A stretch of DNA of 20,763 nt from Cyanobacteria bacterium CG_2015-22_32_23 (GCA_009993045.1 JAACUG010000044.1:1-20763), one strand, 5' to 3'. Positions 1,944 to 15,540 are shown, counted from the first letter of the stretch. Notes: generated by a model from the sequence alone, not told the origin. Numbers and translations are program-made.

Positions 1944-3473
1944 ATGAGTTTAGGGAAAAAAGAAAATCGGATACTAGCAAATCGTTATCAACTGATTGAG
2001 TTAATTGGCTCTGGGGCAATGGGGCAGGTATATAGAGCTGAAGATCAAGTATTAGGTGGGGTAACGGTGGCCATTAAATTCCTCTCCCAAACCTTACTTA
2101 ACGATAAAATGCGTGGTCGCTTTGAAACTGAAGCAACTATAAGTGCATTGTTAGGAGAAAAAAGTATTCATATCATTCGAGTAAGAGATTATGGTATCGA
2201 TGAAAATGAAATCCCTTACTATGTGATGGAGTTTTTAGAAGGGCAAAGTTTAAGCGATATTATTAAATTTCAACCCATGGCACTAAAAAGGTTTCTCTAT
2301 GTTACTCGTCAGATTTGCGTAGGGATGGATGCCGCTCACAGTGGAATAATGTTACACAAAGAATTATGTCAAGTGGTACATCGAGACATTAAACCTAGTA
2401 ATGTTTTGGTAATGGAAGATCCCACATTAGGAGAATTAGTCAAAATATTAGACTTTGGGATTGCTAAATTAGTACAAGCAAATGCAACTCAAACTCATTC
2501 ATTTATGGGAACTTTAGCTTATTGCTCCCCCGAACAAATGGAAGGAAAAGAGTTAGATAATCGTTCAGATATTTATAGTTTAGGGGTAATGATGTACGAA
2601 ATGTTAACCCTAGAAATGCCCATCTTGCCAGAAACATCATCTTTTGGTGCATGGTATAAAGCCCATCATGATTTTGAGCCTCGCCCTTTTGAAGCACATC
2701 TAAAAATACCTTCAGAATTAAAAAATATCATCATGAAGTGTATGGCCAAATCCAGAGATAAACGCCCACAAACCGTAGCCGAAATCTTAAAAGTCATCGA
2801 AGGATTAGAAAAAGAATATAAACGCAATAATCAACAAAAAACCAGTTATTCAAGTCAAGAAACCATTGTTGCAGATAAAGATAAAACAGAAGTTTCTCAA
2901 GCCAAAGTTACTCCAACTCAAAAAAAATCTGAAGTAAAACCGACTAAAGACACAAAATTAACATGGCCTAAAAATAAACCTTTACAAAAAATTGTTTTTC
3001 CTCGTATTGTTAATACAGAAACAGAAAACTACCCTAGTTTATGGGTAATGTTAGATAAACAAGATATTTTAAATCGTATAGTTAGTATTCGTTATAATCA
3101 ATTTCTTTTTTTAAGTTCACCTCATCCCATGATTTTGTGGATTACAGTTATTTATAATCCCACCCATGGCCCCCGTTGGCTACCTTGTTACTTAGACTTA
3201 AAAACAGAAAGCGCAAGACAAGTAGTTTCTGCTTTATCTCAACTAGGTAGTTATAAAATTCTCTTTTTTGCTTTAGAAGAGCCTGAAAAATGTCAACATA
3301 GTATGATTTCTACCATCGCCTCTAATCAATGTACTATTATGAAAGAATGGATTAAAAACACTACTATTCCCACTCCTGAAGGGGATGCAAAAGTTAGTCG
3401 TAAAAGATTAAGAGATGAATTTGAACGATTAAAACCTCGTATTTTAGAAAAACTAGGACAAAGTTATCAATAA
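1944..3473 (+). CDS. Hanks-type serine/threonine protein kinase with uncharacterised C-terminal domain
   Basis: 509 aa. Kinase motifs are all present: IGSGAMGQVY (Gly loop), VAIKF (Lys), HRDIKPSNVL (catalytic loop), DFGIAK (DFG), GTLAYCSPEQ (APE-like). After aa ~290 comes a K/T/Q-rich linker, then a ~170-aa domain with no motif I recognise and no TM segment. Confidence 0.9.
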   Translation: MSLGKKENRILANRYQLIELIGSGAMGQVYRAEDQVLGGVTVAIKFLSQTLLNDKMRGRFETEATISALLGEKSIHIIRVRDYGIDENEIPYYVMEFLEGQSLSDIIKFQPMALKRFLYVTRQICVGMDAAHSGIMLHKELCQVVHRDIKPSNVLVMEDPTLGELVKILDFGIAKLVQANATQTHSFMGTLAYCSPEQMEGKELDNRSDIYSLGVMMYEMLTLEMPILPETSSFGAWYKAHHDFEPRPFEAHLKIPSELKNIIMKCMAKSRDKRPQTVAEILKVIEGLEKEYKRNNQQKTSYSSQETIVADKDKTEVSQAKVTPTQKKSEVKPTKDTKLTWPKNKPLQKIVFPRIVNTETENYPSLWVMLDKQDILNRIVSIRYNQFLFLSSPHPMILWITVIYNPTHGPRWLPCYLDLKTESARQVVSALSQLGSYKILFFALEEPEKCQHSMISTIASNQCTIMKEWIKNTTIPTPEGDAKVSRKRLRDEFERLKPRILEKLGQSYQ

Positions 3474-3518: not shown

Positions 3519-6254
3519 ATGGATTTAATTTTATGTCATCAAACGGCGGATTTCGATGCTTTAGGGGCGGCAGTAGGTTTAACTAAATTACATTTAGGTG
3601 CGAAAATCATTTTAACGGGAGGCGCACATCCTTCGGTGAAAAATTTTTTAGCTTTACATCGAGATGAATTAGCTTTAATGGAGTTTCGTAGTGTTAATCC
3701 TCAAAAAATTAGAAATTTATTTATTGTGGATACTCAAAATTCTAGTCGTTTAGGAAAAGCTACAGAATGGTTAGATTTAGAGAATATAGAGTCCATAACT
3801 ATTTACGATCATCATCTTGAAAACGAAGCTAATATCACGGCTAGTTTTAAATATATCGAAAAAGTTGGTTCTAGTGCCACAATTATTTGCGAACTTTTAC
3901 AAGAAAAATCTTTAACCCTAAATACCATCGAAGCCACGGTAATGGCATTAGGAATCCATGTGGATACTGGTTCACTCACTTACGAACAGACTACTTCTCG
4001 GGATGCTTTAGCCTTGGCATGGTTGATGACTCAAGGAATAAATCTTCGCACCATAGGAGAATATGTTGAACCAAGTTTAGCACCATCGTTACAGCAGTTG
4101 TTACCCCAAGCCTTAAAGAATTTACAAACAGAAATTATTAACGGTTGTTGTGTGGGATGGATATTATTAGAAACTCCTAATTTTATGGCTGGATTGTCTA
4201 ATTTAGCAGGAAGAATTAGAGATTTAACGGAAGTTGATGTTTTTTTATTGGGACATTATTATGGTTATAGTGTCAAGTCTAAACAGATTTTTTCGGAAAC
4301 GGAAGAAAAGAAAAAAGGAAAATTAACGGTAATTGGGCGTAGTGGTATAGATTCGGTGAATTTAGCTTCTATTTTTACAGATTTTGGCGGAGGAGGTCAT
4401 AGTAGTGCAGCTTCTTTTAATTTACGTTGTGATAATCCTCAAGAAATAATTAATAATCTTTTGACTCAGATTAAAGATTTAATTCCTTTTCCTCTGGTGG
4501 CTAGAGATTTAATGTCATCTCCTGTGCGCACAATTCTTCCTCACCTTACCATCGAAAAAGCACAACGAATTTTACTCCGTTATGGGCATTCAGGGTTATT
4601 TGTGGTGACGGAAAAAGGGGAATTAGTGGGAGTAATTTCTCGCCGAGATATTGATTTAGCTTTACATCATGGCTTTTCTCATGCACCTGTAAAAGGTTAT
4701 ATGACGAAAAATGTCCAAAAAATTCACCCTCAAACTTCTTTCCGTGATATTCAAAGTTTAATGGTAAATAATGATATTGGTAGATTACCAGTAATGGAAA
4801 ACAATGAGTTATTAGGTATCGTGACGCGCACAGATATTTTACGACATCTTCATCAATTTAGTCTCAATGATTCTCCTTCTCAAGATACTTTACCTCTACT
4901 TTCTTGTCTTTTACCTTCTTTTGAAAAACATTTACATCCCCCTATCTGGAAGTTATTACAACAAGCGGCAACTTATGCACAAACTCAAGGTTGGCATCTT
5001 TATCTGGTGGGTGGTGGTGTAAGAGATTTATTATTAACCTCATCTTGCGATACTCTTTCTTTGCAGGATATTGATTTAGTGGTAGATGGTTTTCATAAAT
5101 CGGCAATTACTGAGGCTGGAGTAAAGTTAGCTAAATCCTTGCAAAATATTTATCCTCAAGCACGTTTAAGTATTCATGGGGAATTTCAAACTGCTGCATT
5201 ATTATGGCATAAAGACGAGAATTTAGGCTCATTATGGGTAGATATTGCCACCGCGCGCACGGAATTTTATCCTTATCCTGCGGCTAATCCTGTGGTAGAA
5301 TCGAGCTCAATTCGTCAAGATTTATACCGTAGAGACTTTACTATCAATGCTTTAGCTGTGCGTCTTACTCATCCTCGTGGAGGGGAATTATTAGATTTTT
5401 TTGGCGGTTTAAAAGATTTACGCTCAAATTTTATCAGAGTTTTACATCCTAATAGCTTTATAGAAGATCCTACCAGAATTTTTCGGGCGGTAAGGTTTGC
5501 TGTAAGACTAAATTTTATCATTGAATCAGAAACCAGAGAATATATTAACTATGCTATTTCTAGTGGGGTATATGAAAGAGTCTCCTCAGAAAAAACCTCT
5601 ATTCCAGCCTTAACTACTCGTCTCAAAGCGGAATTAAACTATATTCTCCAAGCGCAGTATTGGAAACCAGCTTTAAAATTATTGCAAGAAGTGGGCGCTT
5701 TAACTTGTTTGCACAAAAATTGTCAATTAACTCCCCAGTTATGGTGGCAAATTCGTTGTTTAGATCGTTGGTTAAGATATTATCATTTAGATGAACAAAA
5801 TCCTCCCGTTACTTGTTGGTTATTACGATTAGAAATTATTTTGGCTTCTTTTATGGAAGGGGTGAAAGTAGCGGAAAATTTACAATTACCTAAAGACAGT
5901 ATCCAAAGACTGAAATATTTGTCAATTAATGAGGAAAATATTAAAAATACTTTATCCACTTGTCAATCTATTAGTGAAAAGGTAAAATTCTTATCAACTT
6001 ACCAACCTTTGACTCTTTTACTTGTTGCGGTAAAAAATGATAAACACATTAGAAAAACTATTTGGTGTTATTTGATGACGTGGAATAAGATAAAATTCCC
6101 TTTTAATGGCGATGACTTGAGGGATTTAGGTTATAAACCTAGTAAAAAATATAAACAAATATTGACAACAGTACAGGCTTTATTTTTAGATGGTAAGATT
6201 AATAATACTCTTGAGGCAAAAGATTTTATCCTGAAAAATTATCCTCTTTGCTAA
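3519..6254 (+). CDS. DHH/DHHA1 phosphoesterase - CBS pair - tRNA nucleotidyltransferase/poly(A) polymerase family fusion protein (CCA-adding enzyme-like)
   Basis: 911 aa. N-terminal part: HQTADFDALGAA (DHH motif I), IYDHH (DHH), FGGGGHSSAASF (DHHA1 GGGH). Middle: two CBS-like repeats (ARDLMSSPVRTI...GVISRRDI; GYMTKNV...GIVTRTDIL). C-terminal part: GGGVRDLLL, DIDLVVDG, RRDFTINALA, EDPTRIFRAVRFAVRL (nucleotidyltransferase head/neck motifs). Confidence 0.9.
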   Translation: MDLILCHQTADFDALGAAVGLTKLHLGAKIILTGGAHPSVKNFLALHRDELALMEFRSVNPQKIRNLFIVDTQNSSRLGKATEWLDLENIESITIYDHHLENEANITASFKYIEKVGSSATIICELLQEKSLTLNTIEATVMALGIHVDTGSLTYEQTTSRDALALAWLMTQGINLRTIGEYVEPSLAPSLQQLLPQALKNLQTEIINGCCVGWILLETPNFMAGLSNLAGRIRDLTEVDVFLLGHYYGYSVKSKQIFSETEEKKKGKLTVIGRSGIDSVNLASIFTDFGGGGHSSAASFNLRCDNPQEIINNLLTQIKDLIPFPLVARDLMSSPVRTILPHLTIEKAQRILLRYGHSGLFVVTEKGELVGVISRRDIDLALHHGFSHAPVKGYMTKNVQKIHPQTSFRDIQSLMVNNDIGRLPVMENNELLGIVTRTDILRHLHQFSLNDSPSQDTLPLLSCLLPSFEKHLHPPIWKLLQQAATYAQTQGWHLYLVGGGVRDLLLTSSCDTLSLQDIDLVVDGFHKSAITEAGVKLAKSLQNIYPQARLSIHGEFQTAALLWHKDENLGSLWVDIATARTEFYPYPAANPVVESSSIRQDLYRRDFTINALAVRLTHPRGGELLDFFGGLKDLRSNFIRVLHPNSFIEDPTRIFRAVRFAVRLNFIIESETREYINYAISSGVYERVSSEKTSIPALTTRLKAELNYILQAQYWKPALKLLQEVGALTCLHKNCQLTPQLWWQIRCLDRWLRYYHLDEQNPPVTCWLLRLEIILASFMEGVKVAENLQLPKDSIQRLKYLSINEENIKNTLSTCQSISEKVKFLSTYQPLTLLLVAVKNDKHIRKTIWCYLMTWNKIKFPFNGDDLRDLGYKPSKKYKQILTTVQALFLDGKINNTLEAKDFILKNYPLC

Positions 6255-6373
6255 TTTGATTATGATAATCTCACTTTTGGCTAGATTTTAGTTATTATTA
6301 CTTGTTAGTAAAATTATTTACTTTTAAGAATTAACTAACCATTAAACACTAAAAAATTTTATTTATTATTTTT

Positions 6374-6679
6374 ATGAAGGGGAAAATATCAAATACAGTG
6401 ACTAAATCTACTCTTAAAATTAATTCTCCTAATTTAGAATTGTCTTCATCTCAGATGATAAAAAATGTTTCAATTAAGAAAAAAATAAACATGGATGACA
6501 TTCCCGAAAAACAAAAACAAAAATCCTTAACAATTTTTAAACAATTAATTATCATTACCAGTATAGTATTTAGTTTTGGTGGTTTCGGATTCGGTTTTGC
6601 CTTACGTTATGGGCATCATTTAGAAATTTCTCAGTCAAATAATTCTCCTCTCAATAATATTTCTGAAAACCAGCAGTAA
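6374..6679 (+). CDS. hypothetical small membrane protein (weak call)
   Basis: 101-aa ORF with one hydrophobic segment (LIIITSIVFSFGGFGFGFAL). The remainder is low-complexity. An alternative start at ATG 6491 (MDDIPEK...) would give 62 aa. No family signature. Confidence 0.35.
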   Translation: MKGKISNTVTKSTLKINSPNLELSSSQMIKNVSIKKKINMDDIPEKQKQKSLTIFKQLIIITSIVFSFGGFGFGFALRYGHHLEISQSNNSPLNNISENQQ

Positions 6680-6865
6680 ATAATTTTAACTACTAAAGTA
6701 AAATAGATTGTGGAGTTTAAAATTAATGAAAATAACTCATAATCTTTTTTGCCTCTTCCATTCTTCTATAAGTGCATGAGTGTTAAAGTAAACATACAAT
6801 TAATCTTGGCTATTTACTTATATAGTTTATTCTCAATTTATCACTCCTTAACCATTACTATTTAT

Positions 6866-7567
6866 CTATTGTACTCCCACTGAACGCCCTCCAGAGCCAA
6901 AAACTAAAATTTTATCTTGGGCGAAAGGTTCCCATCCTACTTCATAACCAATACTCCAAGCCTTTTCCCTCGCAACTCTAAAAGTTTCAAAACTATCAGG
7001 ACGTACAATAAAAGCGATATAATTAACATCAGGATTTAATTGTTTTAAAGTGTTAATAAAGCTAGAGTTAGTCATTTTTAATTGTTTAGAATCTTCTCCT
7101 TGAGATGAAGAATTAGCTTCATATTTTAATGCTCCATCTTCAGTAAAACTAACTAAATAATCACCGTTATCATAATAAAAATTATCGAGTTTAATATTTC
7201 TAGTCTTAATACATTGCTCATAATCTTGTATTTCTTGTAGATAAAAACTGTATAAATAAGAAGGAATATCTTTGGGAATATCAGGAGTTTTACAATTAGG
7301 TAAAGTTGCTAATACTTGATTAATTTCACTATCTAATTTAGGATCATTTAAGGAAAAAATTTTGTTATTTCTTACTTCAAAAAAAAGAGGTTGTTTGTTG
7401 GTTTGTGAGCGTAAAGGTGTCCTAATAATTGTACCAGCTTCTGCTGCTAATAAACTGACAAATAAACCAATAAACATCAATACTCCTACGGTATTTGTCA
7501 ATATATCTAAAAATGAATCTAAATTTTGTTCGGGATGATTTTTTTTTCTAATTCTTCTAGGTCTCAT
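6866..7567 (-). CDS. ExbD/TolR-like single-pass membrane protein, long form (233 aa)
   Basis: Basic N-terminus followed by a TM segment (NLDSFLDILTNTVGVLMFIGLFVSLL) that resembles the ExbD/TolR TM, with Asp21 at the position of the conserved protonatable Asp. The C-terminal motif NYIAFIVRPDSFETFRVAREKAWSIGYEVGWEP is shared with the adjacent 150-aa ORF. Lies 28 bp downstream of that ORF on the same strand. Confidence 0.6.
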   Translation of the reverse strand: MRPRRIRKKNHPEQNLDSFLDILTNTVGVLMFIGLFVSLLAAEAGTIIRTPLRSQTNKQPLFFEVRNNKIFSLNDPKLDSEINQVLATLPNCKTPDIPKDIPSYLYSFYLQEIQDYEQCIKTRNIKLDNFYYDNGDYLVSFTEDGALKYEANSSSQGEDSKQLKMTNSSFINTLKQLNPDVNYIAFIVRPDSFETFRVAREKAWSIGYEVGWEPFAQDKILVFGSGGRSVGVQ

Positions 7568-7595
7568 AATGTTATTAATGTTATCATATTTTTGA

Positions 7596-8048
7596 CTATT
7601 TAACTTTTAAAGTCCAACCTTCTTCTATGGGTTCATAACCTATATCAATTTTTTCTTTTTCAATCAAATCTCTTACTTGTTGAAAAACCTCAATTCCTTT
7701 TGGTCTAACTGCTACAATAACATATTCTTTATCTTTATTTGCTCTAATATTTGCAATAAAATTTAGTAATTTAGAATCATTGTTACTAAGTTTATTTTTG
7801 GGTATAAATTCTTGACTAGGATAGATAACAACTCCGTCTTCTTTACATTCAATATAACGAGGTTGTTTTTTTTGATTTATTCCTTTTCCGTCAGTTTTAG
7901 CAATAATTGTTACTTCTGGATTAGTATTTAATGTTTCTGTACTAATGACAATTATAAGTAAAATTAAACTCCCAATAGTACAAGCTAGAATAGATAAAAA
8001 AGGGAATAATTCCATTTCTATTTTATTAGATTTTAATTGTCTGCGCAT
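7596..8048 (-). CDS. ExbD/TolR-like single-pass membrane protein, short form (150 aa)
   Basis: Basic N-terminus plus TM segment (ELFPFLSILACTIGSLILLIIVIS). The periplasmic part ends in EYVIVAVRPKGIEVFQQVRDLIEKEKIDIGYEP, which fits the ExbD-like pattern (beta strand, helix, strand). Lies 42 bp downstream of the MotA/ExbB-like gene. Confidence 0.6.
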   Translation of the reverse strand: MRRQLKSNKIEMELFPFLSILACTIGSLILLIIVISTETLNTNPEVTIIAKTDGKGINQKKQPRYIECKEDGVVIYPSQEFIPKNKLSNNDSKLLNFIANIRANKDKEYVIVAVRPKGIEVFQQVRDLIEKEKIDIGYEPIEEGWTLKVK

Positions 8049-8090
8049 TTTTAAAAATTAGATAATAATAGTAGTTAATAATTAATAGTT

Positions 8091-9527
8091 TTATTGTTCA
8101 ATTTGTTCAACTAATCTAATAACTCTAGGCTTACTTAAGTCTTGTAAAGTAGGTTGTAAAAGAGTTATTTTATCTTGTACATTAACTAAAGTTTTTTGCA
8201 TTTCTCCTACGTTATTTAATACCGCAACAACTTTCTCTAAACTAGATTGTAACTGATTAAGTTCGGCGATTTTAGCACTAGATTTTTCTAAAGATATAAC
8301 TTTTTCTTCTAGGCTTAAAGCTGCTTTATTTAATTCATTACTAATAACTTGAGTTTTTTCATTTAAACTATTACTATTTACTTCATTATTTTCTCTCACT
8401 AAATCAACTAATTCTTTAATATTATTAATAATAGACTGGTTTAAATCATTCTGTTGTCCAAAAGTTTGTAAAAAATTATCTCTATCTTTTAAAATTACTT
8501 GATTAATGTCTTTAATACTATTTATTAATTCTAATTCTTGATGATTAATTTCCTTAAATTGTTTAATAATTTCTTCTACTAAATTTTTAGCTGCTTCTTT
8601 AGCATAAATTTCTGCAGGATTAATTAAGTCTTGAGGAGAAGGTAAAGCGTCTTTTATCGGTTGAATTAACTCTTCTTTTGTCGGTAATTTATTATCAATA
8701 GCATCTGTAACAGTTTTAATTAATATGTCACTATTTAAGATAGATTTTTCTGAGTCATTTTTCTCCTTTAATCGAGGTAAAATATAATCATTAATATAAA
8801 TATCAGTAGCTAGTAATAATTGTGATTCCATTTTTTCAATTAACACTAAAGGAATCATGACAATAACACTTAACAAAAGTGCCAATAAAGTGGTATCAAA
8901 AGCAATAGCTAAACCACTGGTAACAGTGCCAATTCCCTCTTTAATTTGCTCAATTTCTGCACTTTTATCTAAAAACCCTGAAAAACCATTAACGGCACTA
9001 CTAATACCTAAAACTGTGCCAATAAATCCTAATAAGGGAATTGCCCAGACTAAAATTCGTGGTAAGGTATAAGAAGACTCTGACGCAGTAAGGTAAAAAG
9101 AAGCATCATCTAAGGCTAATTCTGTGACACTTTTGCGACTTCCAGAGTTAATATAAGCGCTTAAAATTCTGGCTAATCTACTCGTTACCATACTATAATT
9201 TCTGGCAAAATCTTCTTGAAGATGAATTAATTGTGCGGATTTATAATTATCAAAAGAAATTTTTTCAGGTAATCCAATCTTTTTTAAAATTTTATCTTCT
9301 CTTTTAATTTTTAAATATTTATTAATCGTAATTATTACTACTAAAGAAGCAAAAAATACTGTTAAATATTGTGTAAATCCTCTTTGGTATAATAAAATAC
9401 CGACATAAGATTCTTTGAAGGGTAAAAATAAGAGATAAATAATAATAGTTAATAGTAATGCTCCTGTCAAAACGGTAGGAAAATTAATGTCTAATTCTTG
9501 ACGATTATTGTTGGGTTTTTGAGCCAT
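8091..9527 (-). CDS. MotA/TolQ/ExbB proton-channel family protein with long C-terminal coiled-coil-like tail
   Basis: 478 aa. Hydrophobic segments at aa ~17-36, 52-69, 156-178 and 204-230. The last two carry the family signature IPLLGFIGTVLGISSAVNGF ... GLAIAFDTTLLALLLSVIVMIPLV. Residues 231-478 are E/K/N/Q/L/I-rich, and residues 305-458 are proline-free. Confidence 0.8.
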   Translation of the reverse strand: MAQKPNNNRQELDINFPTVLTGALLLTIIIYLLFLPFKESYVGILLYQRGFTQYLTVFFASLVVIITINKYLKIKREDKILKKIGLPEKISFDNYKSAQLIHLQEDFARNYSMVTSRLARILSAYINSGSRKSVTELALDDASFYLTASESSYTLPRILVWAIPLLGFIGTVLGISSAVNGFSGFLDKSAEIEQIKEGIGTVTSGLAIAFDTTLLALLLSVIVMIPLVLIEKMESQLLLATDIYINDYILPRLKEKNDSEKSILNSDILIKTVTDAIDNKLPTKEELIQPIKDALPSPQDLINPAEIYAKEAAKNLVEEIIKQFKEINHQELELINSIKDINQVILKDRDNFLQTFGQQNDLNQSIINNIKELVDLVRENNEVNSNSLNEKTQVISNELNKAALSLEEKVISLEKSSAKIAELNQLQSSLEKVVAVLNNVGEMQKTLVNVQDKITLLQPTLQDLSKPRVIRLVEQIEQ

Positions 9528-9623
9528 AATAAAGTTTAATTTATTGAGTTAGTTTTTTAGATTATAAATTGTGATGATAATTTTTTTTATTATAATTAAA
9601 TTTTGAGCTAATTATAACTTTTT

Positions 9624-10238
9624 TTATTTTATTTTGATATTTTCTTGATTAAATTGAATCATAGTCATTAAATTATTAACTATTCTATCATTACTAATAG
9701 GTATCACTTTTTTTCCTTGTAATATTTCTTGAGTTAGAATATGATGAATTAAACTATTAACAAAAATATGAGCAATTGCTTCAGAATCTGTTAAGTTTAA
9801 ATCAGGACAATCATCGAGATATTTAGTAAGAATATTCATAGCTGGTTTAGCGACATTTTCTAAAAATAATTCTCCTAATTCAGGATAACTTTTTGCTTCA
9901 GTAACGATAATATGTATAAAAGCTAAATATTGTGGATCATTAACTTCATTAATAATTCTTTGAGCTAATTCTTTTAAAACAATTTCTGGTTTTCCCTCTA
10001 AAGGTTTTGCCCAAACTAATTGAAATTTTTGGGTAGCAACTTCATAAATTAAAGCCTTAAATAAAGTCTCTTTATCTCCAAAATGACTATATAAAGTTTG
10101 TTTAGAAACTCCAGCATGATAAGCAATTTTATCCATACTTGTACCTAAATAACCATACTCTAAAAATTGAGATAAAGCACCTTTTAAAATTTGTTTCGTT
10201 TTGGCTTCTGCTTTTTTTTGTTGATAGTTTAATATCAT
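9624..10238 (-). CDS. TetR/AcrR family transcriptional regulator
   Basis: 204 aa. The N-terminal HTH is typical of TetR: ILKGALSQFLEYGYLGTSMDKIAYHAGVSKQTLYSHFGDKETLF. Divergent from the devBC-like operon and co-directional with the MotA-like operon (96-bp gap). Confidence 0.9.
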   Translation of the reverse strand: MILNYQQKKAEAKTKQILKGALSQFLEYGYLGTSMDKIAYHAGVSKQTLYSHFGDKETLFKALIYEVATQKFQLVWAKPLEGKPEIVLKELAQRIINEVNDPQYLAFIHIIVTEAKSYPELGELFLENVAKPAMNILTKYLDDCPDLNLTDSEAIAHIFVNSLIHHILTQEILQGKKVIPISNDRIVNNLMTMIQFNQENIKIK

Positions 10239-10340
10239 TTTTTTTAATAATTAATATAGATAAATAATTTTGATTATTATAAATAATAGATAATTAGGGC
10301 ATAATTTTTGATTTTAAATAAATGAATTATAAAATAATAA

Positions 10341-10370
10341 TTGTCAATTATTAAAACTATAGTATATAAT
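10341..10370 (+). promoter_or_regulatory. candidate sigma70-type promoter of the devBC-like operon
   Basis: TTGTCA (10341-10346) and TATAAT (10365-10370) separated by 18 nt, about 35 nt upstream of ATG 10404. Confidence 0.4.
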
Positions 10371-10379
10371 CATACTATA
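10358..10379. promoter_or_regulatory. 22-bp palindrome, candidate TetR operator
   Basis: TATAGTAT-ATAATC-ATACTATA: perfect 8-bp inverted arms with a 6-bp spacer. It overlaps the -10 hexamer in the TetR/devB divergent intergenic region. Confidence 0.45.
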
Positions 10380-10403
10380 CAGTCTAGTCTAACTTTCGGG
10401 AAT

Positions 10404-11711
10404 ATGGGCGAATCAACATCCTTTGTGGCAAAAAACGGTAAACAAATCGCTGTGGTTACGGGAATTTTAGGAGCTGTTATTGTTATAGTGACAGGAATAT
10501 ATCTAAATCAAAAATTAGGTGTCACAAATAATACTTCTCCTTCTCCGATTACCTCTAAAGTGAGGGAAAAATCTGTCACCGCTTTAGGTAGAATTGAACC
10601 TTTAGGTGAAATCATAAAAGTAATTGCTTCACCGACAATGGCTGGTGCGAAGGTTAAAACCTTATTAGTGACACAAGGAGATAAGGTAAAAAAAGGTGAT
10701 ATTATCGCTATTACTACGGATTTTGATAGCAAAAAAGCTGAGTTAGAAACTGCCAAGCAAGAAGTAAAAGTTGCCCAAACTAATTTAGCAATTATACAAG
10801 CAGGAGCAAAGGAAGGTACAATCAAAGCTCAAGAATCAGCCATTGAGAGTTTAAAAGCGGAATTAAATGGGATAATTGCCACTAATAAAGCCAAAATTTC
10901 TCGATTAAATGCTCAATTATCTACGGAAAAAGCCGAAAAAGAAGCTACTATTCAAAGATTAAAGGCTGAAGTAAAAAATGCTCAATCAGAGTTACAACGT
11001 TACCAAGAATTGGCACAAGATGGAGTCATTTCTGAGTCAAATTTGGAGTCGAAACAACTAACTTTTGACACTGTGACTCAAAGTTATCAAGAAGCCTTGG
11101 CAAGTTATCAAAAAACTACTTCAACGGTAACAGAAGAAATCCGAGAAGCGGAAGCCTTGGCAACTCAACAGGTAAATACCCTCACCAAAAAAATTGCGGA
11201 AGCAGAGGCTAAATTAAGGGAAATTAGGGAAATTCGAGAGGTTGATGTTATCCAATCTCAAGCGCAAATAAATAAAGCCATGGCATTAGTCAAACAGGCA
11301 GACATTGAGTTAGATTTAACCCTCATTAAAGCACCTAGTGACGGCACAATTCTCGAAATTATGGCAAGGGAAGGGGAAAACGTTGATAACGCTACTGGAG
11401 TTGTGGAGATGGCGAATACCACACAAATGGTAGCAATAGCAGAAGTATATGAGAGTGATGTTAGTAAAATTAAGCTAGGACAAGAAACTACGATTAAAAG
11501 TGATAATAATAGCTTTAATGAGATGTTAAAAGGTAAAGTTATCGAAATTAGCTCAAAAATAGGTAAAAAAGACGTATTAGAAACAGATCCAGCCGCCAGT
11601 GTTGATGCTAGAGTGGTGGAAGTAAAAATTGCCATTAATCCTGAAAATAACGACATTATTAGTAATTTAATTTATGCTCAAATAATCGCTGAAATTTCTT
11701 TAAGTGATTAA
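10404..11711 (+). CDS. devB: DevB-family membrane fusion protein (HlyD-type periplasmic adaptor of an ABC exporter)
   Basis: N-terminal anchor (IAVVTGILGAVIVIVTGIYL), then GRIEPLGEIIKV, a lipoyl-like beta segment (VKKGDIIA), a long alpha-helical hairpin (aa ~130-310), LIKAPSDGTILEI, and ARVVEVKI near the C-terminus. The tracked ORF begins at TTG 10341, but that codon sits inside the predicted promoter, so ATG 10404 is preferred. Confidence 0.85.
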   Translation: MGESTSFVAKNGKQIAVVTGILGAVIVIVTGIYLNQKLGVTNNTSPSPITSKVREKSVTALGRIEPLGEIIKVIASPTMAGAKVKTLLVTQGDKVKKGDIIAITTDFDSKKAELETAKQEVKVAQTNLAIIQAGAKEGTIKAQESAIESLKAELNGIIATNKAKISRLNAQLSTEKAEKEATIQRLKAEVKNAQSELQRYQELAQDGVISESNLESKQLTFDTVTQSYQEALASYQKTTSTVTEEIREAEALATQQVNTLTKKIAEAEAKLREIREIREVDVIQSQAQINKAMALVKQADIELDLTLIKAPSDGTILEIMAREGENVDNATGVVEMANTTQMVAIAEVYESDVSKIKLGQETTIKSDNNSFNEMLKGKVIEISSKIGKKDVLETDPAASVDARVVEVKIAINPENNDIISNLIYAQIIAEISLSD

Positions 11712-11756
11712 ATATTTTCGACTTTTTATAAATATAAAAAACAATCCTTACTAATT

Positions 11757-12908
11757 ATGAAAATACCTTTAGCTTGGCTACAATTAAGTAGAGAAAAAAT
11801 CCGTTTATTAATCGCTTTAGCAGGGATTGGATTTGCCGATATTTTAATGTTTATGCAGTTAGGATTTAAGTCTGCTTTATTGAATAGTTCTGTTAGATTA
11901 CACGAAAAAATTGAAGGAGATGTTTTCTTAATTAGCCCTCAATCTGATGCTTTAATAGCTATGAAAAGTTTTTCTTCTCGTCGTTTATATGAGGCTTTAG
12001 GAGTCGATGGTGTAGAGTCCATTAATCCTATTTATATTGGTTTTAGTATTTGGAAAAACCCTGAGAATAAAAATACTAGACAAATTATGGTAGTGGGTTT
12101 TAATCCTAAACAAGGAGTATTTAATTTATCGGGAGTAACGGACAATTTAGATCAATTAAAATTACCTGACGTGGTATTATTTGATCAAGAATCTCGCCCA
12201 GAATTTGGCAATATTCCTCAACTTTATTTACAAGAAAAAGAAGTTAAAACAGAAATAGATAGCAGACAAGTAAAAGTAGGTGGATTATTTACTATTGGTG
12301 CAACTTTTGGTGCAGATGGTAATTTAATTACTAGCGATTTAAACTTTTTAAGGTTATTTCCTAATCGTAATAAAGGTTTAATTGATATTGGGGTAATTAA
12401 ACTTGATAAAAATGCTAATAATACCACTGTTATTAACAGTTTAAAAAATAAATTAAATGGCGGTGATGTTTTAATTTTGTCTAGGGAAGAATTTACGAAT
12501 TATGAAAAGAATTATTGGGAAAGTAGCACCGCTATTGGTTTTATTTTTACCCTTGGTGCTGGTATGGGTTTAGTTGTTGGTATTGTTATTGTTTATCAAA
12601 TTCTCTATACTGACGTTGCCGATCATTTACCTGAATATGCTACTTTAAAAGCTATGGGTTACGATAATTCTTATCTTTTAATTCTCGTTTTTCAAGAAGC
12701 AATTTTTCTCGCTTGTCTTGGTTTTATTCCCGGTTTTGGTGTCTCTAGTTTCCTTTATTATCAAGCAGCAAAAGCCACTGGTTTACCTATTATTATGACA
12801 AAAGATTTAGCTATATTAGTGTTTATTTTAACAGTTATTATGTGCTTTTTATCTGGTGCAATTGCCGTTAATAAATTAAAATCTGCTGATCCTGCTGACA
12901 TATTTTAA
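11757..12908 (+). CDS. devC: DevC-family ABC exporter permease (FtsX/MacB-like)
   Basis: 383 aa. One N-terminal TM, a large periplasmic domain, and three C-terminal TMs (FtsX-like: ...YATLKAMGYDNSYLLILVFQEAIFLACLGFIPG...). Starts 45 bp after devB. The opening MKIPLAWLQLSREKIRL is typical of the DevC family. Confidence 0.85.
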   Translation: MKIPLAWLQLSREKIRLLIALAGIGFADILMFMQLGFKSALLNSSVRLHEKIEGDVFLISPQSDALIAMKSFSSRRLYEALGVDGVESINPIYIGFSIWKNPENKNTRQIMVVGFNPKQGVFNLSGVTDNLDQLKLPDVVLFDQESRPEFGNIPQLYLQEKEVKTEIDSRQVKVGGLFTIGATFGADGNLITSDLNFLRLFPNRNKGLIDIGVIKLDKNANNTTVINSLKNKLNGGDVLILSREEFTNYEKNYWESSTAIGFIFTLGAGMGLVVGIVIVYQILYTDVADHLPEYATLKAMGYDNSYLLILVFQEAIFLACLGFIPGFGVSSFLYYQAAKATGLPIIMTKDLAILVFILTVIMCFLSGAIAVNKLKSADPADIF

Positions 12909-15327: not shown

Positions 15328-15540
15328 TTAATTAATTTTTAAAGATGGTTTTTCTGTTAAGCCAAATTCTGTTAAATCTTCATCTTCAAGATGTAAACTA
15401 ACCGCTTCTTGAATATTTTTAATCGTTTCATCTAATGTTAATCCTTGACTGACAACGGAAATTTCTAAACATTCTGCAACATAACCTTGTGTTTCACCTG
15501 CATCAATAATGACGTTAATTGTATTTTTTAAATTAGTCAT
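15328..15540 (-). CDS. HicB-family antitoxin-like protein (UPF0150-type), no adjacent toxin gene
   Basis: 70 aa. INVIIDAGETQGYVAECLEISVVSQGLTLDETIKNIQEAVSLHLEDE matches the short HicB pattern (beta-beta, xQGxTLDEa, helix, acidic end). Confidence 0.55.
   Translation of the reverse strand: MTNLKNTINVIIDAGETQGYVAECLEISVVSQGLTLDETIKNIQEAVSLHLEDEDLTEFGLTEKPSLKIN

What the first reader, a model, noticed from the sequence alone, without database searches (positions are those of the whole stretch)
6866..9527. Stator-like three-gene module: tailed MotA/ExbB-family channel plus two different ExbD/TolR-like subunits, with no Ton/Tol/Mot partner in sight
Seen in the sequence: three co-directional minus-strand ORFs are separated by only 42 and 28 bp. 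The first carries the MotA/TolQ/ExbB signature across its last two TM segments (IPLLGFIGTVLGISSAV ... GLAIAFDTTLLALLLSVIVMIPLV). The next two each have a basic N-terminus plus a single ExbD/TolR-like TM segment. Established knowledge: MotA/MotB, ExbB/ExbD, TolQ/TolR, ZorA/ZorB and AglR/AglQ/AglS are ion-driven 5:2 motors, and each couples to a dedicated output (flagellar rotor, TonB, TolA, Zorya effectors, gliding machinery). Unusual here: no TonB-like, TolA-like, TonB-dependent receptor, OmpA/MotB-type peptidoglycan-binding domain or ZorC/ZorD-like gene lies in the window. The channel subunit also has a long tail, and there are two non-identical plug subunits. From memory only: Synechocystis PCC 6803 is reported to have a three-gene exbB/exbD-like cluster (sll0477-0479) in addition to canonical exbBD pairs. 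If this locus is its counterpart, the module is conserved but mechanistically uncharacterised, rather than absent from databases. Inference: this is an ion-driven motor whose output partner is unknown.
Basis: partly seen in the sequence, partly recalled or inferred. Interest (0 to 1): 0.7.

Follow-up and report, generated by a model that had tools for sequence, protein, structure and literature searches.

The report
Long-tailed proton-motor module, unknown output
Three adjacent genes in a Geminocystis-like cyanobacterium encode what looks like a membrane ion-driven motor with a long inward tail and two unlike "stator" partners; the set is conserved across cyanobacteria and beyond, but what it drives is still unknown.

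Summary
Three co-directional minus-strand ORFs (478, 150 and 233 aa) are separated by 42 and 28 bp.

- **ORF1:** it passes the Pfam MotA_ExbB threshold. Its AlphaFold model matches only TolQ, ZorA, MotA, ExbB and PomA chains. It has four TM segments and a coiled-coil tail of about 250 aa with a conserved tip.
- **ORF2 and ORF3:** they are paralogues of each other (hhalign E 1e-13). They resemble ExbD/TolR only remotely (single-comparison P about 1e-4) and fail every curated cut-off.
- **Asymmetry:** ORF3 keeps the invariant transmembrane Asp at the ExbD D25 position. ORF2 has Ser there in 75 of 77 cyanobacterial loci.
- **Conservation:** the A-B1-B2 order is kept in about 68 of 80 cyanobacterial loci and in 10 of 11 long non-cyanobacterial metagenome loci. 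No other neighbour is conserved, and no Ton or Tol gene lies nearby.
- **Literature:** Synechocystis sll0477-0479 (one ExbB-like gene plus two hypothetical genes, iron- and Fur-regulated, counted among three ExbB-ExbD sets needed for iron uptake) is the probable counterpart. I could not check this by sequence.

Verdict: a real, widespread variant of the 5:2-type motor with a two-protein B pair and a ZorA-like tail. Its output is unresolved.

The parts
8091..9527 (-). ORF1, 478 aa: A (channel) subunit. Four TM segments (about aa 19-37, 53-69, 157-180, 199-229) plus a cytoplasmic tail.
   Evidence: ORF. Pfam PF01618 gives 25.7 bits against a cut-off of 22.9. The AF2 model has mean pLDDT 72.7. 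All top 50 Foldseek PDB hits are TolQ, ZorA, MotA, ExbB or PomA. There are 755 homologues, which NCBI names 'MotA/TolQ/ExbB proton channel family protein'.
8847..9143 (-). MotA_ExbB core of ORF1 (aa 129-227). It contains TM3 (PRILVWAIPLLGFIGTV) and TM4 (GLAIAFDTTLLALLLSVIVMIPLV).
   Evidence: Pfam match to aa 129-227. These are the invariant columns of alignment A3: P164, G170, T171, D211, T212, T213, P226. hhalign aligns this stretch to canonical ExbB proteins: Picosynechococcus E 1e-5, E. coli E 1.9e-4.
8094..8846 (-). Cytoplasmic tail of ORF1 (aa 228-478). A linker is followed by one helix of about 167 residues (aa 298-464) with coiled-coil periodicity.
   Evidence: The AF2 model shows helix 298-464. 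Hydrophobic periodicity is 3.45-3.6 residues. Tail sequence and length vary between homologues (about 460-627 aa overall), with repeat insertions in P0073 and P0105.
8103..8135 (-). Conserved tail-tip motif SKPRVIRLVEQ (aa 465-475).
   Evidence: P467 and R468 are invariant and K466 nearly so in A3. Similar tips occur in relatives from metagenome loci L101 (cyanobacterium-like) and L130. The model has low confidence here (pLDDT below 50).
7596..8048 (-). ORF2, 150 aa: B-type subunit without the TM Asp. Basic N-terminus, TM segment ELFPFLSILACTIGSLILLIIV, then a periplasmic alpha/beta domain.
   Evidence: ORF; 322 homologues; invariant E13 and S19. The motif LFPFLS occurs in 75 of 77 loci. Weak ExbD/TolR signals: TIGR02801 E 0.012; Pfam ExbD in 6 of 20 homologues, best E 0.0036; hhalign against the ExbD alignment E 1.9e-4 and 5.8e-5.
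6866..7567 (-). ORF3, 233 aa: B-type subunit with the TM Asp. Basic N-terminus, TM segment NLDSFLDILTNTVGVLMF (D17, D21), then a periplasmic domain equal to the ORF2-like core plus an insertion.
   Evidence: ORF; 435 homologues. It is a paralogue of ORF2: hhalign probability 98.1%, E 1.2e-13. D21 is invariant in 32 diverse relatives. hhalign aligns D21 with ExbD D25, E 4.5e-4. In the AF2 model the periplasmic part has pLDDT of about 84-94 per 10-residue block. No Pfam, NCBIfam or PADLOC hit.
7073..7306 (-). ORF3-specific insertion (about aa 88-165) with invariant Cys92 and Cys119.
   Evidence: This region is a gap in the hhalign alignment to ORF2. C92 and C119 are invariant. The periplasmic part contains exactly two Cys in 68 of 68 loci. 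The model shows helix 103-128 plus three short strands.
8049..8090 (.). 42-bp spacer between ORF1 and ORF2.
   Evidence: Coordinates. No terminator-like site was found in 6300-10400.
7568..7595 (.). 28-bp spacer between ORF2 and ORF3.
   Evidence: Coordinates. In other species these genes abut or overlap.

Best explanation
The three genes encode one inner-membrane complex of the MotA/ExbB/TolQ/ZorA ('5:2') kind, driven by an ion gradient.

**Proposed assembly (inferred).** Five copies of ORF1 form the outer ring. ORF2 and ORF3 insert their single TM helices into the centre, most probably as a 1:1 heterodimer.

**Proposed ion path (inferred).** Protons pass by the single conserved carboxylate, ORF3 Asp21. 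This residue sits at the position of ExbD D25 and TolR D23. It faces the conserved Thr and Pro residues of ORF1 TM3 and TM4. ORF2 carries Ser at the Asp position, so the stator is intrinsically asymmetric.

**Two possible outputs (inferred).**
- Outward: the ExbD/TolR-like periplasmic domains. ORF3 carries an extra insertion that is probably held by a disulphide.
- Inward: a coiled-coil tail about 25 nm long, presumably a five-helix bundle as in ZorA, ending in a conserved KPRxIxLVE tip that could dock an unlinked partner.

**Likely physiological role (inferred, less certain).** It may act as an iron-limitation-induced energiser of envelope transport, working with partners encoded elsewhere such as TonB and TonB-dependent transporters. 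This rests on the presumed counterpart, Synechocystis sll0477-0479.

**Shown here:** family membership of ORF1; paralogy of ORF2 and ORF3; the Asp/Ser asymmetry; conservation of the trio; absence of a linked partner.

**Not shown here:** stoichiometry, ion flow, rotation, the iron role, and orthology to sll0477-0479.
For: **ORF1 is an A subunit.**
- Pfam MotA_ExbB above the gathering score.
- All top 50 Foldseek hits are TolQ, ZorA, MotA, ExbB or PomA.
- The conserved PLLGFIGTV and AFDTTLLAL helices align to canonical ExbB.

**ORF2 and ORF3 are ExbD/TolR-like paralogues.**
- They are paralogues of each other.
- hhalign to an alignment of 12 ExbD/TolR sequences gives P 5.8e-5, 1.9e-4 and 4.5e-4. 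The register is the same in each: ORF3 D21 and ORF2 S19 fall on ExbD D25.
- TolR and ExbD are the only recurrent weak hits.
- The ORF3 model core reads beta-beta-alpha-[insert]-beta-alpha-beta-beta. From memory of PDB 2PFU, this is the ExbD order.

**Asymmetry is family-wide.**
- D21 is invariant.
- ORF2 has Ser in 75 of 77 cyanobacterial loci.
- ORF2-like proteins in non-cyanobacterial relatives have S, T, A or C there.

**ORF2 and ORF3 probably act together.**
- They co-occur in about 68 of 80 loci.
- The trio is kept in 10 of 11 long metagenome loci.
- Natural fusion proteins carry an ORF2-like and an ORF3-like periplasmic domain in one chain.

**Topology and tail.**
- Two invariant Cys in the ORF3 ectodomain fit an oxidising compartment.

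**Iron link (literature).**
- sll0477-0479 is one transcription unit, induced 6.7-fold by iron stress, annotated 'ExbB-like | HP | HP'.
- exbD3/D4 (sll0478/sll0479) are iron-responsive in two strains, with a Fur box in strain 6803.
Against: - ORF2 and ORF3 fail every curated ExbD/TolR threshold.
- PDB profile searches with their alignments find nothing.
- Foldseek of the ORF3 model has TolR only at rank 17, E 0.34.
- No multimer model could be run, so the 5:1:1 assembly is untested.
- Canonical 5:2 motors use two Asp residues. A one-Asp stator has not, to my knowledge, been shown to turn.
- The Ton-type role is doubtful. No tonB or TBDT gene lies within about 8 kb in any of 81 loci.
- ORF1 has four TM segments and a tail, unlike the three-TM ExbB of about 215-245 aa. 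A canonical ExbB-ExbD next to a TBDT exists in the same cyanobacterial family.
- Orthology to sll0477-0479 rests only on the annotation pattern.
- No E. coli-type Fur box is present in the window.
- ORF3 is unlinked or missing in some Pleurocapsales loci.
Confidence: 0.55

Rival explanations
1. Zorya-like anti-phage or envelope-surveillance module. The complex senses envelope perturbation and uses the ZorA-like tail to pass a signal to cytoplasmic effectors encoded elsewhere or swapped between genomes.
For: - The best named matches of ORF1 outside Pfam are ZorA models: PADLOC ZorA1 E 1.9e-6 and NCBIfam ZorA_2 over aa 65-406.
- A subunits of distant relatives reach ZorA1 E 7.6e-13.
- ORF1 has a long coiled-coil tail whose length varies between homologues.
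- The two plasmid-borne copies lie in defence islands. In Anabaena cylindrica pANACY.03 the module sits between a type III-B CRISPR locus with a CARF-HEPN gene and a viperin gene. In Microcystis p1 it lies directly downstream of a 1094-aa PLD-SNF2 helicase, beside SLATT, a methylase and nucleases.
Against: - All ZorA scores are far below the family cut-off (22.5 bits against 100).
- The B subunits have no OmpA-type peptidoglycan-binding domain and no PADLOC hit.
- No ZorC-G-like gene is linked.
- Of the 136 nearest neighbours in 80 loci, most are housekeeping or signalling genes and few are defence genes.
- ORF1 identity falls with taxonomic distance as expected for vertical descent.
- The module is absent from viral contigs.
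- The presumed Synechocystis counterpart responds to iron.
Confidence: 0.15
2. Tol-like or secretion-coupled envelope motor. It energises outer-membrane maintenance, cell division or export of large surface proteins, in a phylum that (from memory) lacks canonical Tol-Pal.
For: - The ectodomains are TolR/ExbD-like and lack a peptidoglycan anchor.
- In the window and its closest relative (L001) the module lies beside the DevB/DevC exporter genes.
- In non-cyanobacterial relatives the trio is followed by giant beta-helix/Ig/lectin proteins (L111, L112), or lies near GspD secretins and LpxA (L130, L131).
- In one locus it lies beside TPR, Sel1 and PG_binding genes.
Against: - None of these neighbours is conserved across loci.
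- The DevBC adjacency is limited to close relatives.
- No TolA, TolB or Pal-like gene was found.
- The L111/L112 and L130/L131 pairs are probably close relatives of each other, so they count as few independent observations.
Confidence: 0.15
3. An ordinary, merely divergent Ton system. ORF1 is ExbB, and ORF2 and ORF3 are ExbD1 and ExbD2, as in bacteria with tandem exbD genes. The tail has no special role.
For: - The literature names sll0477, sll0478 and sll0479 as exbB, exbD3 and exbD4 and counts them as one of three ExbB-ExbD sets needed for iron uptake.
- Tandem ExbD genes occur in canonical systems, for example Sphingomonas and Aquabacterium.
Against: - Similarity of ORF1 to the canonical cyanobacterial ExbB is confined to 55 columns of TM3-TM4.
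- ORF1 has four TM segments plus a tail of about 250 aa with a conserved tip.
- ORF2 and ORF3 are not detected by the ExbD models.
- ORF2 lacks the Asp.
- The module is never linked to tonB or a TBDT.
- The trio forms its own widespread family: 2336 representative clusters for the ORF3 type.
Confidence: 0.15

Closest known systems
ZorA/ZorB of the Zorya anti-phage systems (PDB 8qyd, 8vvn)
   Same: The A subunit has a MotA-like membrane core followed by a long cytoplasmic helical tail whose length varies between homologues. ZorA chains are among the best structural matches. ZorA models are the best named HMM matches for ORF1 and its distant relatives.
   Different: - The tail is much shorter (about 250 aa).
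- Scores are far below the ZorA family cut-off.
- There are two different B subunits with ExbD/TolR-like ectodomains, not one ZorB with a peptidoglycan-binding domain.
- No ZorC, D, E, F or G gene is present.
- The module is mostly chromosomal, appears vertically inherited, and is not generally in defence islands.
ExbB-ExbD (Ton) and TolQ-TolR (Tol) motors
   Same: The TM3/TM4 signature of the A subunit is shared. The B subunits are single-pass with a basic N-terminus, a TM Asp (ORF3 only) and a small alpha/beta periplasmic domain without a peptidoglycan anchor. TolQ and ExbB are the top structural hits. The presumed Synechocystis counterpart is iron-regulated and is named ExbB/ExbD.
   Different: - ORF1 has four TM segments and a tail, against three TM segments and about 215-245 aa.
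- ORF2 and ORF3 fail the ExbD/TolR models.
- ORF2 has Ser in place of the Asp.
- ORF3 has a two-Cys insertion of about 80 aa.
- No TonB, TolA or TBDT gene is linked in 81 loci.
AglR-AglQ-AglS gliding motor of Myxococcus xanthus (from memory)
   Same: One MotA/TolQ-type A subunit is encoded together with two different TolR/ExbD-type B subunits in one operon.
   Different: AglR has no long tail. As far as I recall, both AglQ and AglS keep the TM Asp. That motor couples to the Glt gliding complex. The present module also occurs in unicellular cyanobacteria and has no Glt-like neighbours. No sequence comparison was made here.
Canonical ExbB-ExbD1-ExbD2 operons (for example Sphingomonas plasmid L092, Aquabacterium L098)
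   Same: Two tandem, non-identical ExbD-type genes follow or accompany an ExbB-type gene.
   Different: In those systems both ExbD copies are recognised as ExbD by annotation, and the ones I aligned keep the Asp. Other canonical ExbD genes I fetched lie beside TonB or a TBDT.

Membership tests
MotA/TolQ/ExbB proton-channel family (Pfam PF01618) | Profile match above the curated gathering score | tested here: met
   ORF1 scores 25.7 bits against a cut-off of 22.9, over aa 129-227. Most homologues carry precomputed PF01618.
MotA/TolQ/ExbB proton-channel family (Pfam PF01618) | Fold of a 5:2-motor A subunit | tested here: met
   In Foldseek against the PDB, all top 50 hits are TolQ, ZorA, MotA, ExbB or PomA. 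Best E is 4.9e-3, probability 1.00, TM-score up to 0.60 on the target. This is a monomer model with mean pLDDT 72.7.
MotA/TolQ/ExbB proton-channel family (Pfam PF01618) | Conserved Pro/Gly-Thr motif in the penultimate TM and Thr in the last TM (ion path) | tested here: met
   P164, G170, T171, T212, T213 and P226 are invariant in A3. This stretch aligns to ExbB PFVGLFGTV.
ExbD/TolR family (Pfam PF02472, TIGR02801) | Profile match above the curated cut-off | tested here: not met
   ORF2: TIGR02801 gives 16.2 bits against 127.3. Pfam ExbD appears only in 6 of 20 homologues, best E 0.0036. ORF3 and 20 homologues have no ExbD hit. Distant relatives have none either.
ExbD/TolR family (Pfam PF02472, TIGR02801) | Remote homology by profile-profile comparison | tested here: inconclusive
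   hhalign against 12 ExbD/TolR sequences (A5) gives: A4 E 5.8e-5 (probability 66%), A2 E 1.9e-4 (48%), ORF3 superfamily E 4.5e-4 (33%), A1 alone E 0.016. The aligned stretch covers only the TM and the first hairpin.
ExbD/TolR family (Pfam PF02472, TIGR02801) | Essential Asp in the single TM helix (ExbD D25, TolR D23) | tested here: inconclusive
   ORF3 meets this: D21 is invariant in 32 diverse relatives and aligns with D25. ORF2 does not: Ser19 in 75 of 77 loci. The result is split between the two proteins.
ExbD/TolR family (Pfam PF02472, TIGR02801) | Periplasmic alpha/beta domain with the ExbD/TolR fold | tested here: inconclusive
Ton system (ExbB-ExbD-TonB plus TBDT) | Genomic or functional coupling to TonB and TonB-dependent transporters | tested here: not met
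   This covers linkage only. No TonB, TolA or ExbBD homologue was found in 81 loci. No TonB or TBDT family is among the 25 most frequent families of the 136 nearest neighbours. Functional coupling cannot be tested with these tools. The literature reports an iron-uptake role for the presumed Synechocystis counterpart.
Zorya (ZorAB plus effectors) | ZorA family model above cut-off | tested here: not met
   NF033915 gives 22.5 bits against a cut-off of 100. PADLOC ZorA models reach at best E 1.9e-6, over TM3-TM4 only.
Zorya (ZorAB plus effectors) | ZorB with a C-terminal peptidoglycan-binding (OmpA-like) domain | tested here: not met
   ORF2 and ORF3 have no OmpA or PG-binding hit in Pfam, NCBIfam or PADLOC.
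Zorya (ZorAB plus effectors) | Linked effector genes (ZorC/D, ZorE, ZorF/G) | tested here: not met
   None in the window. No neighbour is conserved in 80 loci. One plasmid copy has a PLD-SNF2 helicase upstream with only a weak ZorD match, E 3e-14.
MotA/MotB flagellar stator | MotB-type OmpA peptidoglycan-binding domain and flagellar context | tested here: not met
   No OmpA domain. No flagellar genes in the window. From general knowledge, cyanobacteria lack flagella.
5:2 motor architecture in general | A5B2 stoichiometry with B helices inside the A ring | not testable with these tools
   Only monomer prediction was offered. This needs AlphaFold-Multimer or cryo-EM.

The most novel reading that the evidence does not exclude
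The trio defines a separate, ancient and widespread class of ion-driven motor, present in cyanobacteria and in several other, probably planctomycete-like, lineages. Its stator would be an obligate heterodimer with only one proton-carrying Asp. Its ZorA-like cytoplasmic tail would deliver the output inward. On this reading it is an envelope-to-cytoplasm transducer (for example a sensor of iron or envelope state) that is neither a Ton energiser nor a Zorya defence system.
Probability: 0.3. Interest if true: 0.8.

Novelty: new variant of a known kind. Interest (0 to 1): 0.6.

Why it matters
**A test of the motor model.** Motors of the 5:2 type power flagella, nutrient import, envelope maintenance, gliding and phage defence. 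Each known class has a defined output. This module pairs a ZorA-like tailed A subunit with two unlike ExbD/TolR-like partners, only one of which keeps the proton-binding Asp. If it works, it tests the accepted two-Asp alternating mechanism.

**An undescribed family.** It points to a large protein family with no Pfam model. The ORF3 type alone has 2336 representative clusters.

**Relevance to cyanobacterial iron uptake.** The probable Synechocystis counterpart is iron-regulated and has been grouped with ordinary ExbBD. Recognising that it is structurally different could change how iron-uptake genetics in this ecologically important phylum are read.

Tried and rejected
**Searches that found nothing useful**
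- PDB sequence-profile searches with the ORF3, ORF2 and enlarged ORF2 alignments gave no meaningful hit.
- Foldseek of the full ORF3 model was dominated by noise; TolR was at rank 17.
- hhalign against single E. coli ExbD and TolR sequences was too weak. I therefore built a 12-sequence ExbD/TolR alignment from plasmid records.
- The first genome scan with a single protein found nothing. The alignment-based scan worked.
A narrower alignment worked.
- No E. coli-type Fur box is in the window. The promoter and terminator scan was uninformative in this AT-rich DNA.
- There are no relatives in viral contigs.

**Hypotheses tested and set aside**
- A conserved fourth gene. The upstream genes of about 500 aa proved heterogeneous: CARF-HEPN in Nostocales, a histidine kinase, and others.
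- A general defence-island location. This is not supported by the neighbour survey.

**Orthology to sll0477-0479**
- Jiang et al. 2015 and Qiu et al. 2018 are not held.
- No supplements are held for the transcriptome papers.
- No Synechocystis sequence could be reached with the remaining quotas.
- Literature searches for a described tailed cyanobacterial ExbB found nothing.

Full report
**Observation**

The window carries three co-directional minus-strand ORFs: 8091-9527 (478 aa, ORF1), 7596-8048 (150 aa, ORF2) and 6866-7567 (233 aa, ORF3). They are separated by 42 and 28 bp.

The region is AT-rich, with 24-29% G+C, and has no terminator-like site between the genes. The closest database relatives are from Geminocystis (80% identity for ORF1), so the source is a Geminocystis-like cyanobacterium.

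**ORF1**

- Pfam MotA_ExbB matches aa 129-227 at 25.7 bits, just above the gathering score of 22.9.
- NCBIfam and PADLOC give only sub-threshold ZorA matches.
- An AlphaFold2 model built on 20 homologues (mean pLDDT 72.7) shows helices at the four hydrophobic segments and one uninterrupted helix from aa 298 to 464.
- In Foldseek against the PDB, every one of the top 50 hits is an A subunit of a 5:2 motor: TolQ, ZorA, MotA, ExbB or PomA. E-values are modest but probability is 1.00.
- In the family alignment the TM3-TM4 core is almost invariant (PRILVWAIPLLGFIGTV; GLAxAFDTTLLAL...MIPLV). The tail varies in sequence and in length. Some homologues carry repeat insertions that bring them to 525-627 aa. 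The tail ends in a conserved LQPxLxxLSKPRxIxLVE tip.
- Hydrophobic periodicity in the tail is 3.45-3.6 residues, as in coiled coils.
- Similarity to a canonical cyanobacterial ExbB is limited to 55 columns of TM3-TM4. That ExbB is 215 aa and lies next to a TonB-dependent receptor on a Picosynechococcus plasmid.

ORF1 is therefore a genuine member of the MotA/TolQ/ExbB superfamily. It has a four-TM, tailed architecture closest in style to ZorA, and it is not an ordinary ExbB.

**ORF2 and ORF3**

Neither protein reaches any curated threshold.
- ORF2 has a weak TolR hit (TIGR02801, E 0.012). Six of 20 homologues touch Pfam ExbD, best E 0.0036.
- ORF3 and its homologues hit nothing.

The two families are clear paralogues of each other: hhalign probability 98.1%, E 1.2e-13. 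ORF3 equals the ORF2 core plus an insertion of about 80 residues. That insertion holds two invariant cysteines, and the ectodomain has exactly two Cys in 68 of 68 loci. This fits an oxidising, periplasmic location.

The AlphaFold2 model of ORF3 is confident for the ectodomain (per-block pLDDT of about 84-94). Outside the insertion its order of elements is beta-beta-alpha...beta-alpha-beta-beta. From memory of PDB 2PFU, that is the ExbD arrangement.

To test the ExbD link properly I collected twelve annotated ExbD/TolR sequences from E. coli and diverse plasmids. I then ran profile-profile comparisons:
- ORF2 family: E 1.9e-4.
- Enlarged ORF2 alignment: E 5.8e-5.
- A 139-sequence ORF3-superfamily alignment: E 4.5e-4.

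Each is a single pre-specified comparison, so these values are P values. The three alignments agree on the register. They place ORF3 Asp21 and ORF2 Ser19 on the essential ExbD Asp25. I read this as real but remote kinship with ExbD/TolR, not as family membership.

**The asymmetry**

- ORF3 carries LDSFLD[IV] in 65 of 68 cyanobacterial loci. Asp21 is invariant in 32 highly diverse relatives.
- ORF2 carries LFPFLS in 75 of 77 loci.
- In non-cyanobacterial relatives the ORF2-type protein has Ser, Thr, Ala or Cys at this position. I saw a single Asp-bearing exception.

The family is therefore defined by one Asp-bearing and one Asp-less B subunit.

Natural fusion proteins carry a signal peptide, an ORF2-like domain and an ORF3-like domain in one chain. 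Together with near-obligate co-occurrence, this argues that the two ectodomains work as a pair.

**Distribution and context**

*Across cyanobacteria.* A pattern scan of one genome per GTDB species found 570 genomes encoding an ORF1 relative. The 80 best are all cyanobacteria apart from a few mis-binned MAGs. In about 68 of these 80 loci, ORF1, ORF2 and ORF3 follow each other on one strand.

*Neighbours.* All-against-all clustering of the flanks found no other conserved neighbour. There are two minor exceptions:
- a small membrane protein of about 75 aa lies downstream in 24 loci;
- CheA/MCP genes replace ORF3 in five Pleurocapsales loci.

A jackhmmer search with E. coli ExbB, ExbD, TolQ, TolR and TolA found nothing in any locus. 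Among the 136 nearest neighbours the commonest Pfam families are response regulators, histidine kinases, an ABC-class ATPase and Uma2. Defence families are few.

*Plasmid copies.* The only two copies in the plasmid collection sit in defence islands:
- next to a type III-B CRISPR locus with a CARF-HEPN gene, and near viperin, in Anabaena cylindrica;
- directly downstream of a PLD-SNF2 helicase, beside SLATT, a methylase and nucleases, in Microcystis.

The module is absent from viral contigs.

*Beyond cyanobacteria.* A profile of ORF3 finds 2336 representative clusters at 50% identity, 679 of them below E 1e-10. In metagenome contigs long enough to judge, the same trio recurs in 10 of 11 cases. 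Its components there are:
- a tailed A subunit of 511-718 aa that hits the ORF1 profile at E 1e-29 to 1e-151;
- an ORF2-type gene;
- an ORF3-type gene.

The neighbours of these relatives differ from locus to locus:
- a 2860-aa beta-helix/Ig/lectin protein;
- a 1095-aa ankyrin protein;
- GspD secretins with LpxA;
- kinase-FGE-sulfatase fusions;
- a phospholipase-like giant with TPR and PG_binding proteins.

The A subunits of these relatives match PADLOC ZorA models more strongly, up to E 7.6e-13.

**Literature**

- The genes are called exbB, exbD3 and exbD4. exbD3/D4 are iron-responsive in strains 6803 and 6714, with a Fur box in 6803 (PMC8634477).
- A review states that three ExbB-ExbD complexes, possibly with TonB and FhuA-type transporters, are required for iron uptake, citing Jiang et al. 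2015 (PMC7133116; also PMC7676907).
- The primary paper is not held, and I could not obtain the Synechocystis sequences.
- The annotation pattern (one ExbB-like gene plus two 'hypothetical' genes in one operon) is what ORF1-3 would receive. Orthology is therefore probable but unverified.
- Recent surveys of 5:2 motors and of periplasmic force transducers do not, in the passages I searched, describe this cyanobacterial trio.

**Interpretation**

The best-supported reading is a 5:2-type ion-driven complex. In it, an ORF1 pentamer would surround an ORF2:ORF3 heterodimer. ORF3 Asp21 would be the only proton-carrying carboxylate. There would be two candidate output ends: the paired ExbD/TolR-like ectodomains, and a cytoplasmic coiled-coil tail of about 25 nm with a conserved tip. 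The stoichiometry, ion flow and movement are all inferred.

What the complex drives is open. I rank the possibilities as follows:
1. An iron-limitation-induced energiser of envelope transport that uses unlinked partners. This comes first because of the Synechocystis data.
2. Three alternatives with lower and similar weight:
   - a Zorya-like surveillance or defence role;
   - a Tol-like or secretion-coupled envelope role;
   - simply a divergent Ton system.

The complete lack of linkage to tonB or TBDT genes and the ZorA-like architecture argue against a routine Ton system. The housekeeping neighbourhoods, the apparently vertical inheritance and the missing effectors argue against a routine defence system.

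**Novelty and score**

The genes are annotated, and their presumed Synechocystis counterpart has been named and studied genetically. The locus is therefore not unknown.

I found no description of the following, and none of them follows from membership of a known family:
- the tailed four-TM A subunit;
- the paralogous, Pfam-invisible B pair;
- the one-Asp asymmetry, conserved across a family that reaches well beyond cyanobacteria.

I rate it a new variant of a known kind, with interest 0.6.

Noticed in passing
window 9624-12908: A TetR-family regulator (9624-10238, minus strand, 96 bp upstream of ORF1 and co-directional with it) faces divergent DevB (10341-11711) and DevC (11757-12908) exporter genes. 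No devA ATPase gene follows; prs comes next. The closest relative (L001) has the DevB-like gene directly upstream of the module, with no TetR gene in between.
   Followed up: partly
L099 (Anabaena cylindrica pANACY.03) and L100 (Microcystis aeruginosa NIES-2481 p1): The only plasmid-borne copies of the trio lie in defence islands. In L099 a type III-B CRISPR locus and a CARF-HEPN gene lie upstream, and viperin lies downstream. In L100 a 1094-aa PLD-SNF2 helicase lies immediately upstream, with SLATT, a methylase, NUDIX, HNH and GIY-YIG genes nearby.
   Followed up: partly
P0398 (592 aa), P0425 (415 aa), P0459 (596 aa); loci L082-L084: These are secreted fusion proteins without the ExbD-type TM helix. 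Each carries an ORF2-like and an ORF3-like periplasmic domain in one chain. P0398 also has a weak DUF2092 match. L082 carries a further stand-alone ORF2-like gene downstream.
   Followed up: partly
L030, L067, L069, L073, L078 (Pleurocapsa/Waterburya); L002 (Geminocystis CENA526): ORF3 is missing next to ORF2. In the Pleurocapsales loci a convergent CheA-like kinase and MCP genes abut ORF2 instead. In Geminocystis CENA526 the ORF3 homologue (P0135) lies on another contig.
   Followed up: partly
24 related loci, for example L019:3582-3809 and L029:10585-10824: A small two-TM protein of about 75 aa follows ORF3 on the same strand in 24 of 80 loci but not in the window. By eye it looks like a LapA/DUF1049-type protein (IAIFSIQN...SLKFL). 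No profile search was run on it.
   Followed up: no
P0073 (Gloeothece citriformis PCC 7424, 627 aa), P0105 and P0120 (525 aa); alignment A3 columns 386-540: The ORF1 tail is lengthened in some species by tandem repeats of about 45-50 residues (QQSFTNSLERQQENNQDVVTQVKGLV...). Tail length is therefore evolutionarily adjustable.
   Followed up: no
window 3519-6254: A 911-aa fusion protein combines DHH/DHHA1, two CBS domains and a poly(A) polymerase/CCA-adding head domain. It lies downstream of a Ser/Thr kinase-like ORF (1944-3473).
   Followed up: no
window 6374-6679: A 101-aa plus-strand ORF lies just downstream of ORF3 and converges on it. It has one hydrophobic segment and no Pfam match. It may not be a real gene.
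   Followed up: no
window 15328-15540: A 70-aa minus-strand ORF that by eye resembles a HicB/UPF0150-type antitoxin. No partner toxin ORF was seen. It lies just before pheT (15681-18224).
   Followed up: no
L112:9729-18311 and L111:3295-5532: In two non-cyanobacterial relatives the trio is followed directly by a giant secreted protein with beta-helix/NosD, Ig, cadherin and lectin domains (2860 aa in L112). In L130 and L131 a GspD secretin lies 1-2 genes away.
   Followed up: partly
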